Positions 1,310-10,238 are shown, counted from the first letter of the stretch. The stretch is DNA of 64,000 nt from Vicinamibacterales bacterium (GCA_050187355.1 JBFWXO010000006.1:43658-107657); one strand, 5' to 3'. Notes: generated from the letters alone by a model not told the origin. A program made the numbers and translations.

Positions 1310-6808
<5,499 letters not shown>

Positions 6809-6832
6809 TCGTCCGGCTCGCGCGGCGGCCGC

Positions 6833-7480
6833 TCACTCGGCCGCGAACACCGGGGTGAGCAGCCGGGCCAGCGCCTGGCGCGCGCGGTGGACCCGAATCT
6901 TGACGGCGTTGGGCGAGGCGCCGAGCAGGCCCGCCACCGTGGGCGTATCGAGCTCCTCGATGTCGCGCAGCAGCAGCACCGTGCGATAGGCGGCCGGGAG
7001 GCGATCGATGGCCGCCCGCACGTGCGACCGGGTCTCCTGGACCTCGAGCGCGCGCTCCACGTCGGTCCACTCGGGCGCCGGCGACGCCTGGTGGCCATCG
7101 GACAGGAACGTCGGCAGCATCTCCTCGATCGACGTCTCGGGCCGGCGCTTGCGGCTCCGCAGCCGCATGAGGGCGCTGTTCACGACGATGCGGTGCAGCC
7201 ACGTGGACAGGAGGCAGTCGCCGCGGAACGACGGCAGCGCGCGCAGGGCCAGGATCATCCCGTCCTGCACCACCTCCTGGGCGTCCTCCTCGTTGCGAAG
7301 CAGCCGCCGGGCCACCGCGAGGAGGCGGTGCGTGTTGGCGCGCACCAGTTCCTCGAAGGCCCGCTCCTCGCCCTGCTGCAGCCGCGCCAGGAGCCGGCGA
7401 TCCGCCGAGTCGGGCACCTCCGGCGGCAGCGGGAGGCGCGGGACGACGTCGTCCAGGGAGGGCAGCTGCGGTGCGGTCAT
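6833..7480 (-). CDS. ECF-type RNA polymerase sigma-70 factor
   Basis: AFEELVR..., DAQEVVQD, STWLHRIVVNSALMRLR (region 2); LPAAYRTVLLLRDIEEL...VKIRVHRARQAL (region 4). Start set at ATG 7480 inside the longer track ORF. Confidence 0.9.
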   Translation of the reverse strand: MTAPQLPSLDDVVPRLPLPPEVPDSADRRLLARLQQGEERAFEELVRANTHRLLAVARRLLRNEEDAQEVVQDGMILALRALPSFRGDCLLSTWLHRIVVNSALMRLRSRKRRPETSIEEMLPTFLSDGHQASPAPEWTDVERALEVQETRSHVRAAIDRLPAAYRTVLLLRDIEELDTPTVAGLLGASPNAVKIRVHRARQALARLLTPVFAAE

Positions 7481-7719
7481 GACGGCGCTCCCTCGATGAG
7501 CAGCCGGACGAGGGGCGGAACGTTCAGGAGCCGGGCACCCTGCCGGGCCAGCCGGGCCAGCGCGGCCGCGGCGGGGCGGTCGACGAAGGTGATCCCTCCG
7601 AGGTCGAGGGTCGCGGCTGCCCCGTCCTCGGGCAGCAGGTCCACGGATGCGGCAGTCAGGCGGCCCTCGATGAACATCACGGGTCCCTCCGGGCGGTCGT
7701 TCACGGTGATCCTCAGCAT
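7477..7719 (-). CDS. Small STAS-domain protein
   Basis: MLRITVND...FIEGRLTAASVD...TLDLGGITFVD...LARQGARLLNVPPLVRLL is a STAS-like pattern; 4-nt overlap with the ECF start. Confidence 0.7.
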   Translation of the reverse strand: MLRITVNDRPEGPVMFIEGRLTAASVDLLPEDGAAATLDLGGITFVDRPAAAALARLARQGARLLNVPPLVRLLIEGAPS

Positions 7720-7737
7720 CGGCGTACCCGTCCATGG

Positions 7738-7753
7738 GGCAACCGGCATGCCG
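7738..7753 (-). promoter_or_regulatory. Putative sigma54 -24/-12 promoter for STAS-ECF
   Basis: Minus strand reads cGGCATgccggTTGCc: exact GG-N10-GC spacing, close to TGGCAC-N5-TTGC. Confidence 0.65.
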
Positions 7754-7855
7754 CCCGGTCCATGACGGCGAGAAACCCGCCGGTGGCGGATTTCCGGCCA
7801 GAACTCGAGGAAGACGGCGGGAACCGCTCCGGGGAGCGAGGGGTAGGCCACGGCA

Positions 7856-7909
7856 CCCACGAAATGTCGTGGCTCCCGGACGTCGTGGGACCCACGAAAT
7901 ATCGTGGGG
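7856..7909. promoter_or_regulatory. Two palindromic putative enhancer (UAS) sites CCACGA-N4-TCGTGG
   Basis: CCACGAAATGTCGTGG (7857-7872) and CCCACGAAATATCGTGGG (7891-7908), 35 bp apart; extra half-site TCGTGGG at 7883-7889. Confidence 0.65.
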
Positions 7910-7931
7910 CCGCGGTCCGGGCCTGGCGCCG

Positions 7932-10238
7932 CTACACGCGGAAGAACCGGGTCAGCTTCACGACGAACGCGCGGTTCTTCAGTCCGGGGTAGCCCGCCGT
8001 CCGGGTGTCGCGCTCGTCGGTGTAGACGACGAAGAACTCACTGCCGAGCTTGTACTCCCAGCGGTAGCGCACGTTGGTGCTGAAGCTCTTGTCCGTGGAG
8101 TTGTACTGGACCAGCGCGCTGGCGAACATGCGCGGCGAGAAGGCGTAGTCGGTGCGGGTGCGGAGCAAGGTGGTGGTGAAGCCCCCGCCCGGGAGGTCCA
8201 CCTTCGTGTACTGGATCGTGGGCTCCACCGAGAACTGCCGCTGGAACGAGACCCGGGCGGCCGTGTAGCTCAGGCTGCGGATCGTGCCGTTCCAGAAGTG
8301 GCCGACCTGGGCGCCGAGCGCGCCCGCCACCCGGCGCTGCGCGCCCAGGGAGTAGGTGGCCTGGATGTCGTCGAACTGGTAGCTGCCCGGCTGGATGGTG
8401 ACGCCGCTCACCACGTCGAAGGCGCGCGGCAGGCCCTCGTAGTCGCGGGTGGCCTCCACGTTGAGGAAGTCGCTGTTCTCCAGCTCCACGCTGAACTTCC
8501 CGACGTGCACGCGGGTCTCCAGCGCGCCGGCGCCGCTCTCGATGTGCTCGAGGTCGTACTGCCAGGTGAGCTTGCGCACGCCCTTCAGGCGGCGGGGCCG
8601 CGGGCTGAAGCGGAGCGACGCGAAACCGCGCGTGAAGTCATCGCGCTGGACGAAGCCCACCTCGGGGTTGAAGTGGTCGCCGACGTGCACGTATTCCAGT
8701 TTCGCGCCGTAGCGATCGGCGAAGTAGTCGAGGCGCGCCTGGTAGCTGTCGTCGTCGCCCGACAGGCCTTCCGTGGCGGTGCGCGCGTAGTAGCCGCCGA
8801 CCGTGAGGTCGTTCCTGAGCCCGAAGGCGGCGTCCACGCCGTAGGCCTGGTTCGACGAGCCCGGACTGACGTTGGAGGCCGAACGGTTCGTGACGATGGC
8901 GCCGACGGTGCTGTTCTTGAAGATGTCGCGCTTGACGCGGATCACGCTGAAGTTCGTGGCGGGCGTGGCCGACACCTGATCGTCGCCGGCCTGGATGTCG
9001 AGCAGCCCCACGCCGAACTTGCCCACCTTGCCCGTCGCCCGCGCGCCCACGCGGATCGGCACCACCCGGCCGCCGTTCAGCCCGATGCGGCGACTGTAGA
9101 ACAGCGTGGGCGTGGACGACGGCCCGCCGAACCCGCTGCCGAGGCCGCCGCCCCCGCCGCCGCCCCCGCCGCCGCTCGCGCCGCCGCGTCCGAAGTCGAA
9201 GATGCCGCGGCCTTCCAGGAAGAAGTCCCGCTTCTCCGGGAAGAACAGGCTGAAGCGCGTCAGGTTCACCTGCTGCTCGTCCACTTCCACCTGGGCGAAG
9301 TCGGTGTTGTAGGTGAAGTCGGCGGTGAGGTTGGCCGTGATCCCGTACTTCACGTCGAGGCCGGCCTGGGCGTCGAGGTCGTTCGAGACGGCCGGCGTCC
9401 GGAGCCGGTCCGTCGTGGAGCGGCCGAACACGTACGGCTTGATCTCGAGGTTGCGCGTGCTCTCCGGGACGTCGATGCCGGTGGCCCCTCCGTAGAGCGA
9501 CACGCGGTTGAGACCGAGCGGGCCGCCCATCGAGGCCGGGAGCGGCGACAGGTACGCCCATTCGTTCTTGCGGCGGATGGAGCGGCGGACCTGGAAGCCC
9601 CACGTCTGGTTGCGCCCGCTCCGGAAGCGGATGGACTTGAACGGGATGATCATCTCCATCGTCCAGCCGCCGTCGAACCGCCCCGTCCGCACGTTCCAGA
9701 CCGGGTTCCAGTCGGAGTTCGGCTGGCCCTCGTCGATGACCGAGTAGTCCGAGAACGCTCCGAGCGGGCTGGCGTAGAACATGAACCCGCTGCGCCGGTC
9801 GTGGAACGTGTCGAACCCGACGCCGAGGTGGTCGTTCTGGCGCAGGGGCGCGCTGTCGCGCCGGTACTCGTTGGCCACCCACTGTTCGGGCGGCGAGGAG
9901 TCGTACACCCGCGCGCCGACGTAGATGTTGCGGTCGTCGAACATCAGCCAGACGTCCGTCCGCTCGGTGGCCGCCTCGCCCGTGCGGGGCACCACCTGGA
10001 TGAGATCGCCGAACGGCTGGTTCTGCCCGTAGACGGCTTCCTCGAGCCGCCCGTCCACCGTCAACGGCTCGCGGAGCCGGATCGCGCGCACCGTGGGCTG
10101 GCCGTGCTCGTCGCGGACGATGGTGGCCGGGGCCACGGGGCCGGGCGGTACATCGGGCGGCGCCGGCGCCTGGGCGGCGGCGGGGCGGGGCAAGGCGAGG
10201 ACGGACGCCAGGAGAGCGGCGAGGACGAACCGGATCAT
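7932..10238 (-). CDS. DUF5916 / CBM9-like domain exported protein
   Basis: Signal peptide MIRFVLAALLASVLALPRPAAAQ; LTVDGRLEE, TDVWLMFDDRNIYVG, DFTYNTDFAQVEVDEQQVNLTRFSLFFPEKRDFFLEG; ends in a barrel-like FVVKLTRFFRV. Confidence 0.85.
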   Translation of the reverse strand: MIRFVLAALLASVLALPRPAAAQAPAPPDVPPGPVAPATIVRDEHGQPTVRAIRLREPLTVDGRLEEAVYGQNQPFGDLIQVVPRTGEAATERTDVWLMFDDRNIYVGARVYDSSPPEQWVANEYRRDSAPLRQNDHLGVGFDTFHDRRSGFMFYASPLGAFSDYSVIDEGQPNSDWNPVWNVRTGRFDGGWTMEMIIPFKSIRFRSGRNQTWGFQVRRSIRRKNEWAYLSPLPASMGGPLGLNRVSLYGGATGIDVPESTRNLEIKPYVFGRSTTDRLRTPAVSNDLDAQAGLDVKYGITANLTADFTYNTDFAQVEVDEQQVNLTRFSLFFPEKRDFFLEGRGIFDFGRGGASGGGGGGGGGGLGSGFGGPSSTPTLFYSRRIGLNGGRVVPIRVGARATGKVGKFGVGLLDIQAGDDQVSATPATNFSVIRVKRDIFKNSTVGAIVTNRSASNVSPGSSNQAYGVDAAFGLRNDLTVGGYYARTATEGLSGDDDSYQARLDYFADRYGAKLEYVHVGDHFNPEVGFVQRDDFTRGFASLRFSPRPRRLKGVRKLTWQYDLEHIESGAGALETRVHVGKFSVELENSDFLNVEATRDYEGLPRAFDVVSGVTIQPGSYQFDDIQATYSLGAQRRVAGALGAQVGHFWNGTIRSLSYTAARVSFQRQFSVEPTIQYTKVDLPGGGFTTTLLRTRTDYAFSPRMFASALVQYNSTDKSFSTNVRYRWEYKLGSEFFVVYTDERDTRTAGYPGLKNRAFVVKLTRFFRV

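What the first reader, a model, noticed from the sequence alone, without database searches (positions are those of the whole stretch)
6833..7760. sigma54-to-ECF sigma cascade: an anti-sigma-less ECF transcribed from a -24/-12 promoter with a STAS partner
Seen: GG-N10-GC promoter (cGGCATgccggTTGCc) about 20 nt upstream of a STAS gene that overlaps an ECF gene. No anti-sigma gene follows, because the ECF converges on the activator. The STAS has FVDR where SpoIIAA-type proteins carry the phosphorylated DS. Inference: the adjacent giant bEBP turns on the ECF transcriptionally, a compact sigma-factor relay with a non-phosphorylated STAS modulator.
Basis: partly seen in the sequence, partly recalled or inferred. 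Interest (0 to 1): 0.7.

Follow-up and report, generated by a model that had tools for sequence, protein, structure and literature searches.

The report
Sigma-54 switch driving STAS-ECF sigma operon
An uncultured landfill bacterium makes one of its stress-type (ECF) sigma factors, together with a tiny STAS protein, from a sigma-54 promoter that the giant activator gene next door most likely controls; the design recurs in several phyla in place of the usual anti-sigma factor, but nobody has tested it.

Summary
An 80-aa STAS gene (7477-7719, minus) overlaps by ATGA a 215-aa ECF sigma gene (6833-7480, minus). That gene converges on a 1832-aa sigma-54 activator (1310-6808). cGGCATgccggTTGCc (7738-7753) lies 19 nt before the STAS ATG.

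Taken alone, the promoter match is at chance level: 1 hit in the window against 0.83 expected. The case rests on comparison. In 22 related loci from Acidobacteriota, Myxococcota, Planctomycetota and Binatia, 19 keep a -24/-12 element within 60 nt of the operon start, against 1 of 53 control loci. Of 23 such loci, 22 keep CGA-N4-TCG palindromes 100-225 nt upstream. An activator gene is adjacent in most, in three different orientations. The two perfect palindromes here are the only two in the 6.3-Mb genome.

Close ECF relatives without this cassette are followed by a small zinc anti-sigma. STAS and that anti-sigma never co-occur (0/20 against 53/67).

The STAS has a confident SpoIIAA/RsbV fold, no conserved phospho-serine and no linked kinase. 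In one clade it is fused to the ECF.

Verdict: a sigma-54-to-ECF relay like HrpRS/HrpL, in a different ECF group with an added STAS partner. It is a new variant of a known kind. The role of the STAS is unresolved and nothing has been tested experimentally.

The parts
1310..6808 (+). Giant bacterial enhancer-binding protein (1832 aa): kinase-like N-domain (below the Pfam cut-off), AAA_16/STAND, helical region, GAF, sigma-54 interaction AAA+ domain, HTH_8. Proposed activator of the operon.
   Evidence: Pfam: Sigma54_activat 4.4e-71, AAA_16 4.1e-37, GAF 4.2e-11, HTH_8 5.2e-5, Pkinase 26.5 bits against a 31.7 cut-off. The best NCBIfam profile is FhlA, below its cut-off. Homologous bEBPs adjoin the STAS gene in 25 of the 30 best STAS loci (own locus included).
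6833..7480 (-). ECF (group 4) sigma factor, 215 aa, with no anti-sigma gene downstream. It converges on the bEBP gene with a 24-nt gap.
   Evidence: Orthologues of 53-64% identity follow a STAS gene in L009, L012-L015, L019 and L020.
7477..7719 (-). Mini-STAS protein, 80 aa, SpoIIAA/RsbV fold. Arg replaces the phospho-serine (FVDR). Translationally coupled to the ECF gene by ATGA.
   Evidence: Profile against PDB: TM1442 at 3.9e-7. AF2 pLDDT 93.1, pTM 0.81. Foldseek: RsbV 6m36_B, 4hyl, SpoIIAA 1thn. The family has 2497 representatives at E <= 1e-10.
7738..7753 (-). Sigma-54 type -24/-12 promoter element, 5'-cGGCATgccggTTGCc-3'. GG at 7752/7751, GC at 7740/7739.
   Evidence: single hit in the window. 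Equivalent elements occur in related loci, for example L009 cGGCACgtccgTTGCg, L012 TGGCACtcccaTTGCc, L093 TGGCACgaggtTTGCt. 19/22 against 1/53, p = 1e-13.
7727..7727 (-). Predicted transcription start, placed 12 nt after the C of the -12 GC. The leader would be only about 8 nt. Inferred, not mapped.
   Evidence: Inference from the usual sigma-54 promoter geometry. The distance from -12 to the ATG is 13-19 nt in 10 related loci, all of which start with ATG.
7857..7872 (.). Perfect palindrome CCACGAAATGTCGTGG, proposed enhancer (UAS) site 1, centred about 137 nt upstream of the predicted start.
   Evidence: One of only two CCACGA-N4-TCGTGG sites in the 6.3-Mb genome. yRCGA-N4-TCGYr is found in 22 of 23 related loci.
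7880..7889 (.). Half-site ACGTCGTGGG between the two palindromes.
   Evidence: A similar half-site lies beside the palindrome in L009 and L091.
7892..7907 (.). Perfect palindrome CCACGAAATATCGTGG, proposed enhancer site 2, 35 bp from site 1 and about 172 nt upstream of the predicted start.

Best explanation
This is a transcriptional sigma-factor relay.

Proposed mechanism (inferred throughout):
1. The 1832-aa enhancer-binding protein senses a signal that is still unknown. Its sensor half is a kinase-like/STAND/GAF region.
2. It binds the two CCACGA-N4-TCGTGG palindromes at 7857-7907.
3. Using ATP, it opens the sigma-54 holoenzyme waiting at the -24/-12 element at 7738-7753.
4. The result is a nearly leaderless two-gene mRNA encoding the mini-STAS and then the ECF sigma, coupled by ATGA.
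5. The new ECF sigma redirects RNA polymerase to a regulon that has not been identified.

In this lineage, control of synthesis by sigma-54 and the bEBP has replaced the small zinc anti-sigma that holds the closest ECF relatives. The STAS is a kinase-independent SpoIIAA-like domain made together with the sigma. My best guess, at about 45%, is that it binds the ECF directly and tunes or holds its activity.

Shown here: the genes, the motifs, their conservation, their exclusivity with the anti-sigma, the STAS fold, and natural STAS-ECF fusions.

Inferred: sigma-54 dependence, the start site, which bEBP binds the palindromes, and any STAS-ECF contact.
For: - Gene anatomy and domains.
- rpoN is present. 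The genome has 30 bEBPs, so sigma-54 control is in wide use.
- The palindrome pair is unique in the genome. In the window there are 2 hits against 0.42 expected.
- In G034 (the same family, another genus) the bEBP, a co-varied palindrome CCGCGACATGTCGCGG, cGGCACgtccgTTGCg, the STAS and the ECF are all kept, although the bEBP has moved upstream onto the same strand.
- Of the 30 best STAS loci (own locus plus 29 from genomes of the same order), 25 have an adjacent bEBP. All 8 ECF-bearing loci have a -24/-12 element and palindromes.
- Across phyla: a -24/-12 site in 19/22 cassette loci against 1/53 anti-sigma loci, p = 1e-13; STAS and ZAS co-occur in 0/20 against 53/67, p = 6e-11. The UAS is found in 22/23 loci.
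- The ZAS sits directly downstream in relatives.
- STAS fold and homology.
- The phospho-site is not conserved. RsbW-type kinases lie 83 kb away or on another contig.
- STAS is fused in frame to the ECF in L073 and L085 and in more than 120 protein clusters.
- The 4-nt overlap between STAS and ECF is kept in the clade of this locus.
Against: - There is no transcript, start-site or binding data. The organism is a landfill MAG with DNA runs only.
- The promoter motif alone is at chance frequency. It has T instead of C at the sixth position of TGGCAC and C instead of W after TTGC.
- An 8-nt leader lacks a Shine-Dalgarno sequence. An internal GGAGGG precedes V14/M15 and could mark a different start.
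- STAS homologues head sigma-54 operons with hydrolase, dehydrogenase or efflux cargo. Three ECF loci have the bEBP and promoter but no STAS (L060, L095, L106). Both facts argue that the STAS may serve the bEBP and not the ECF.
- AF2 of a natural fusion gave no confident domain packing (pTM 0.36).
- A paralogous ZAS exists in the genome.
- No ECF target promoter was found.
Confidence: 0.75

Rival explanations
1. The relay is real, but the STAS works on the activator and not on the sigma. As the first product of the sigma-54 operon it would bind the bEBP, probably its AAA+ core, and feed back on it. PspA does this to PspF and HrpV does it to HrpS. The ECF would be only one of several possible cargo genes.
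For: - Mini-STAS genes adjoin a bEBP in 25 of the 30 best STAS loci (own locus included), whatever follows them: ECF, alpha/beta hydrolase, Zn-dehydrogenase or outer-membrane efflux protein.
- Hydrolase-type loci share the CGCGA-N4-TCGCG palindromes and a TGGC..TTGCT promoter.
- ECF loci L060, L095 and L106 work with the bEBP and promoter but no STAS.
- STAS domains are known to bind ATPases: MlaB with MlaF, and SpoIIAA with SpoIIAB. Both appear among the structural matches.
Against: - A large clade fuses the STAS to the ECF in one polypeptide.
- In L041, L058 and L091 the STAS stays beside the ECF although no bEBP lies within the flanks held.
- The non-ECF STAS proteins are a more distant subfamily, with E-values of 1e-8 to 1e-12 and a different C-terminal motif.
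Confidence: 0.3
2. The ECF is not free of post-translational control. The soluble zinc anti-sigma of the paralogous ECF pair on contig C5 (C5:113255-113494) also binds this sigma, so synthesis from the sigma-54 promoter is only one of two checkpoints.
For: The genome holds two paralogues of this ECF, 57% and 51% identical. The first is followed by a canonical H-x3-C-x2-C anti-sigma that is 40-52% identical to the ZAS of related loci.
Against: - ZAS and the STAS/bEBP cassette are strictly exclusive at the locus level (0/20). This would be odd if cross-binding were the rule.
- 57% identity between the sigmas allows a diverged anti-sigma interface.
- There is no direct test.
Confidence: 0.15
3. 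The -24/-12 match is fortuitous. The STAS-ECF genes would then be transcribed from a sigma-70 or ECF-type promoter, or by read-through from the DUF5916 gene upstream, and the convergent bEBP would regulate something else.
For: - The motif frequency is at chance: 1 against 0.83 in the window, 83 against about 104 in the genome.
- The site departs from the consensus at two positions.
- No terminator-like site was found after the DUF5916 gene.
Against: - The element, the palindromes and the bEBP neighbourhood are conserved across four phyla, and absent from 52 of 53 control loci.
- No sigma-70-like promoter was found in 6700-8100.
- DUF5916 is not conserved next to the cassette elsewhere.
Confidence: 0.06

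Closest known systems
HrpR/HrpS - sigma-54 - hrpL (ECF32) cascade of Pseudomonas syringae (PMC5263251; PMC8999054, section 3.1)
   Same: An ECF sigma gene with no anti-sigma is switched on from a sigma-54 promoter by enhancer-binding proteins encoded nearby. Sigma activity is set mainly by synthesis.
   Different: - The ECF group differs. Relatives here pair with a small zinc anti-sigma, and the best NCBIfam profile is PRK11922, below its cut-off.
- The activator is a single giant sensor protein (kinase-like/STAND/GAF). HrpR and HrpS are a pair of proteins without sensor domains.
- A co-transcribed STAS protein is present.
- There is no type III secretion context.
- The hosts are Acidobacteriota-like soil and waste bacteria.
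SigR-RsrA / SigH-RshA type ECF-ZAS pairs (soluble zinc anti-sigma; ECF12-like)
   Same: The nearest relatives of this ECF, and its own paralogue on contig C5, are followed with a 4-nt overlap by a 75-106-aa soluble H-x3-C-x2-C anti-sigma.
   Different: This locus and about 20 relatives have lost the ZAS. They carry the STAS, the sigma-54 promoter and the bEBP in its place. Assignment to an ECF group could not be tested, because no ECF-Hub models are on hand.
SpoIIAA / RsbV / BtrV partner-switching STAS antagonists
   Same: The fold and the sequence family are the same. In Bordetella a STAS protein (BtrV) is encoded with an ECF (BtrS); that statement rests on my own knowledge.
   Different: There is no conserved phosphorylatable Ser (FVDR here; R/L/G/T/H/A/Q elsewhere). 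No RsbW/SpoIIAB kinase or PP2C phosphatase is in the locus. The protein is shorter, 80-95 aa. In one clade it is fused to the sigma itself.
PspF-PspA (E. coli) feedback logic
   Same: The first gene of a sigma-54 operon encodes a small protein that could act back on the operon's own bEBP.
   Different: PspA is a coiled-coil ESCRT-III-like protein and not a STAS. This is an analogy of wiring only, and it is untested here.
FhlA-type GAF-regulated bEBPs
   Same: The C-terminal GAF-AAA+-HTH_8 part scores best against the FhlA profile (388.8 bits). The proposed sites are inverted repeats with a CGA/TCG core.
   Different: The score is far below the FhlA cut-off of 830. The N-terminal 1300 residues (kinase-like/STAND) are foreign to FhlA. 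The target is a sigma factor operon and not hydrogenase genes.

Membership tests
Sigma-54 (-24/-12) dependent promoter | GG and GC doublets exactly 10 nt apart within a TGGCAC-N5-TTGCW-like context, on the coding strand upstream of the gene | tested here: met
   cGGCATgccggTTGCc at 7738-7753, minus strand. Two departures from the consensus. The equivalent element is conserved in 19/22 related loci.
Sigma-54 (-24/-12) dependent promoter | rpoN present in the genome | tested here: met
   Sigma54_DBD at 220 bits in an intact 493-aa frame on contig C2.
Sigma-54 (-24/-12) dependent promoter | A cognate bEBP and upstream activator sites about 80-200 nt from the promoter | tested here: met
   A bEBP is adjacent. 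Two perfect palindromes, unique in the genome, lie at about -137 and -172. The same motif class is found in 22/23 related loci. That this bEBP binds them is inferred.
Sigma-54 (-24/-12) dependent promoter | rpoN- and bEBP-dependent transcription, with a start about 12 nt after the GC | not testable with these tools
   Only DNA runs from landfill metagenomes hold the sequence.
ECF (group 4) sigma-70 family | Only regions sigma-2 and sigma-4, about 200 aa | tested here: met
   Sigma70_r2 at residues 45-113 and Sigma70_r4_2 at 154-204, 215 aa. TIGR02937 sigma70-ECF scores 89.3 bits against a 42.9 cut-off.
ECF32 (HrpL) group | Sequence membership in the HrpL group, with a type III secretion regulon | not tested
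   No ECF32 model is on hand. The best profiles are PRK11922, SigM and RpoE, all below their cut-offs. Relatives pair with ZAS anti-sigmas, which ECF32 members lack. The relay works like HrpL, but this ECF is not filed as a member of that group.
ECF-ZAS pair (SigR-RsrA-like) | A zf-HC2 (H-x3-C-x2-C) anti-sigma gene directly downstream of the sigma gene | tested here: not met
   Nothing follows the ECF here except the convergent bEBP. A ZAS is present in 53 related loci and beside the C5 paralogue.
STAS / SpoIIAA-like anti-sigma antagonist | STAS fold | tested here: met
   AF2 pLDDT 93.1. Foldseek probability 1.00 to RsbV, SpoIIAA and 4hyl, with query-normalised TM 0.60-0.72. Profile against PDB: 3.9e-7. 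The single-sequence Pfam hit is below the cut-off (23.2 against 29.2).
STAS / SpoIIAA-like anti-sigma antagonist | A conserved phosphorylatable Ser/Thr after the Asp at the N-cap of helix 2 (the DS motif) | tested here: not met
   FVDR here. The position is R, R, L, G, T, H, A, Q, A, N, S or D in relatives.
STAS / SpoIIAA-like anti-sigma antagonist | A linked anti-sigma serine kinase (RsbW/SpoIIAB, HATPase_c_2) and a PP2C phosphatase | tested here: not met
   The two strong HATPase_c_2 hits in the genome lie at C6:134331 (83 kb away) and C2:149146. No such gene turned up in the ORF listings of the related loci or in the products scanned against Pfam; these flanks were not searched with the HATPase_c_2 model. 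PP2C was not searched.

The most novel reading that the evidence does not exclude
The mini-STAS would define a previously undescribed, kinase-independent way of controlling ECF sigma factors. A non-phosphorylatable SpoIIAA-like domain, encoded just upstream of the sigma or fused to its N-terminus, would bind the sigma directly. It would replace the zinc anti-sigma as the post-translational checkpoint, while sigma-54 and the bEBP set synthesis.
Probability: 0.35. Interest if true: 0.75.

Novelty: new variant of a known kind. Interest (0 to 1): 0.55.

Why it matters
ECF sigma factors are among the largest signalling families in bacteria, and almost all studied ones are held by an anti-sigma.

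Here one ECF group contains lineages with the classical zinc anti-sigma and lineages in which a sigma-54 promoter, an enhancer-binding protein and a mini-STAS stand in its place. At least three switches between the two states are forced by well-supported branches of the tree. That makes a natural experiment on how control by release of a sigma is exchanged for control by its synthesis.

It extends the HrpL paradigm to abundant uncultured soil and waste-site phyla. It also points to a large uncharacterised mini-STAS family (about 2500 representative clusters) whose partner is testable: the sigma, the activator, or both. The compact cassette of enhancer, -24/-12 element and an orthogonal ECF could be useful as a tightly closed synthetic switch.

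Tried and rejected
1. RNA evidence. The look-up of sequencing runs found only DNA metagenome runs, so the start site and rpoN dependence could not be examined.

2. A word-based homologue search with the 80-aa STAS found only itself. The family was reached through genome HMM searches instead and through the full HMMER scan.

3. ECF target or autoregulatory promoter.
- Enumerating pairs of -35-like and -10-like words in 40 upstream regions of ZAS-type relatives gave nothing above shuffles.
- A SigR-like GGAAT-N17-19-GTT scan gave 91 genome hits. These were not clearly above scrambled controls, and none lay in the window.
- The regulon stays unknown.

4. AF2 of a natural STAS-ECF fusion, to look for docking of the two domains, gave pLDDT 65 and pTM 0.36, which is uninformative.

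5. DUF5916/CBM9, the upstream neighbour, was considered as part of the module. It is not conserved at any related locus.

6. The palindromes were considered as an intrinsic terminator of the upstream gene. There is no T-tract and no terminator-like hit. They recur upstream of the promoter in loci where the upstream gene is the bEBP.

7. The 300-aa ORF 6833-7735 and the 127-aa GTG-extended STAS ORF 7477-7860 were rejected. The family N-terminus MLRIT is conserved, and the best hits begin at residue 1.

8. Monophyly of the STAS-linked ECFs. The tree is poorly resolved and does not support a single origin; at least 3 changes are forced by starred branches.

9. Literature. Five full-text searches and two papers read found no description of a STAS + bEBP + ECF cassette or of a STAS-ECF fusion. 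The supplements of the ECF classification paper are not held.

Full report
**Observation**

- On the minus strand, an 80-aa ORF (7477-7719) ends with a TGA that overlaps the ATG of a 215-aa ORF (6833-7480).
- The longer ORF is an ECF sigma factor: Sigma70_r2 2.6e-16, Sigma70_r4_2 8.1e-14, and TIGR02937 above its cut-off.
- The shorter ORF gives a sub-threshold STAS_2 hit of 23.2 bits against a cut-off of 29.2.
- The ECF stop lies 24 nt from the stop of a convergent 1832-aa gene (1310-6808). That gene carries a weak kinase-like domain, AAA_16/STAND, GAF, a sigma-54 interaction domain (4.4e-71) and HTH_8.
- GGCATGCCGGTTGC lies at 7739-7752 on the minus strand, with 19 nt between the C of GC and the STAS ATG.

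Taken alone, the match is not above chance. The window has one hit against 0.83 expected. The genome has 83 hits against about 104 expected from base composition.

**Local extras**

- Upstream, at 7857-7872 and 7892-7907, lie two perfect palindromes, CCACGA-N4-TCGTGG.
- They are the only two such sites in the whole 6.3-Mb assembly. They sit about 137 and 172 nt before the predicted start, which is ordinary enhancer geometry for a bEBP.
- The genome has rpoN and 30 bEBP AAA+ domains.
- Neither a sigma-70-like promoter nor a terminator-like site was found in 6700-8100.

**Conservation within the order**

- The STAS is absent from all 18 same-genus genomes searched. It is present in another genus of the family (G034) at 50% identity, followed by an ECF of 63% identity.
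- In G034 the bEBP has moved to the upstream side on the same strand. A co-varied palindrome (CCGCGACATGTCGCGG) and cGGCACgtccgTTGCg still lie between it and the STAS ATG.
- A three-sequence STAS profile found matches in 108 of 401 genomes of the order.
- Of the 30 best loci (this window's own locus among them), 25 have a bEBP within the 1.5-kb flanks. It lies upstream on the same strand, convergent or divergent.
- All eight loci with an orthologous ECF have a -24/-12 element and two or three CYACGA-N4-TCGTRG sites.

**Conservation across phyla**

An ECF alignment retrieved 80 loci from Acidobacteriota, Myxococcota, Planctomycetota, Binatia and others. They fall into two exclusive classes.

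- In about 53 loci the ECF is followed, usually with a 4-nt overlap, by a 75-106-aa soluble H-x3-C-x2-C anti-sigma. These loci have no STAS, no bEBP and no good -24/-12 element.
- In about 20 loci a STAS precedes the ECF, no ZAS follows, a bEBP is usually adjacent, and a -24/-12 element lies 14-52 nt before the start.
- Three loci (L060, L095, L106) have the bEBP and promoter directly before the ECF, with neither STAS nor ZAS.

| Comparison | Cassette loci | ZAS-type loci | p (Fisher) |
|---|---|---|---|
| -24/-12 site within 60 nt of the start | 19/22 | 1/53 | 1e-13 |
| yRCGA-N4-TCGYr motif at -100 to -225 | 22/23 | loose chance-like hits in 10/53 | not computed |

A separate contrast compares loci with and without a STAS: a ZAS is present in 0 of 20 STAS loci and in 53 of 67 loci without STAS (p = 6e-11).

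On a weakly resolved ECF tree the two classes are interspersed. At least three changes are forced by well-supported branches.

**'Anti-sigma-less' is true of the locus only**

The genome has two paralogues of this ECF on contig C5, 57% and 51% identical. The first has a canonical ZAS, so cross-control cannot be excluded.

**The STAS**

- A 13-sequence profile matches solved anti-sigma antagonists: TM1442 at 3.9e-7, then SpoIIAA and RsfB.
- AF2 gives pLDDT 93 and pTM 0.81. Foldseek places the model with RsbV, SpoIIAA and related antagonists.
- The residue after the conserved FxD is Arg here and varies freely in relatives.
- The only strong RsbW-type kinases in the genome are 83 kb away or on another contig.
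- The family is large: 2497 representatives at E <= 1e-10, mostly 84-95 aa and matching from residue 1. Sources annotate it only generically.
- This copy is the shortest seen. It lacks about ten residues of helix 1.

**Which partner does the STAS serve?**

Two observations pull in different directions.

- In L073 and L085, and in more than 120 protein clusters of about 300-310 aa, the STAS is fused in frame to the N-terminus of the ECF. This argues for a direct functional link to the sigma.
- More distant STAS homologues head bEBP-linked operons whose cargo is an alpha/beta hydrolase, a Zn-dehydrogenase or an outer-membrane efflux protein. Some of these have the same palindrome class. This argues for a link to the activator.

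In L091 the STAS lies upstream of the enhancer and promoter, and only the ECF sits behind them. AF2 of a natural fusion did not resolve any docking of the domains.

**Mechanism**

Best supported, at about 0.75: the bEBP binds the palindromes and activates sigma-54 holoenzyme at 7738-7753. A nearly leaderless STAS-ECF transcript is made, and the ECF then acts without a dedicated anti-sigma.

The STAS is a kinase-independent partner. I put about 45% on it binding the ECF, about 30% on it feeding back on the bEBP in PspA-like logic, and the rest on something else.

**Comparison with known systems**

The only sigma-54-to-ECF relay I found in the literature is HrpRS-HrpL (ECF32) (PMC5263251; PMC8999054). 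The ECF classification paper does not mention STAS in its main text. No paper in five searches describes this cassette or the fusion.

Earlier notes from this scan report the same cassette in Gemmatimonadales, Nitrospira and Acidobacteria genomes. They agree with this reading but are not independent evidence.

This is therefore a new variant of a known kind. It is well supported by comparison and experimentally untested.

Noticed in passing
window 7719-7740; L009, L012, L019, L020, L040, L071, L073, L082, L085: The distance from the -12 GC to the STAS start codon is only 13-19 nt in ten loci. The implied leaders are 2-8 nt with no Shine-Dalgarno sequence, and all ten start with ATG. Loci with longer leaders carry GGAGG-like sites and often start with GTG or TTG. 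This suggests leaderless-type translation from a sigma-54 promoter.
   Followed up: partly
L073:7755-8675 and L085:5463-6389 (Binatia-like MAGs): The STAS and the ECF form one 306-308-aa polypeptide. More than 120 protein clusters of this length exist, and many carry both STAS_2 and Sigma70_r2/r4 Pfam hits.
   Followed up: partly
own genome C5:112608-113494 and C5:115874-116425: Two paralogues of the ECF lie 3 kb apart. The first has a canonical soluble zinc anti-sigma. The second has no anti-sigma, no STAS and no obvious sigma-54 promoter.
   Followed up: partly
L104:7210-8561 (Myxococcota MAG): A hybrid locus. An ECF-ZAS pair is preceded by a perfect TGGCACGccggTTGCT and a CACGACATCTCGCG site, and a STAS-like gene lies on the opposite strand upstream. 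It may be an intermediate between the two control modes.
   Followed up: no
L091:5313-5860 (Myxococcota MAG): The STAS gene lies upstream of the enhancer palindrome and the -24/-12 element. Only the ECF is behind the sigma-54 promoter there.
   Followed up: partly
L021, L028, L036 (same order); L031: The STAS-like domain is in frame, with no stop, with a downstream Hydrolase_4 alpha/beta hydrolase. In L031 it is in frame with an efflux protein whose signal peptide would then be internal. These may be real fusions or may reflect the scarcity of stop codons in high-GC DNA.
   Followed up: partly
window 7660-7682 (minus strand): An internal GGAGGG (the codons for P-E-G) lies 5-8 nt before GTG (V14) and ATG (M15) of the STAS. 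It could serve as an alternative ribosome-binding site and start that would remove the first beta strand.
   Followed up: no
window 1310-2100: The kinase-like N-domain of the bEBP scores below the Pfam Pkinase cut-off (26.5 against 31.7 bits). Only some related cassettes (L045, L063) have the giant kinase-like/STAND sensor. Most have bEBPs with open reading frames of about 640-720 aa; their N-terminal halves were read by eye as GAF/PAS-like and were not scanned against Pfam.
   Followed up: partly
L012:2469-3254, L019:2478-3263: In two cassette loci a PlsC-type acyltransferase gene follows the ECF. It is a possible first hint of a cell-envelope or lipid regulon.
   Followed up: no
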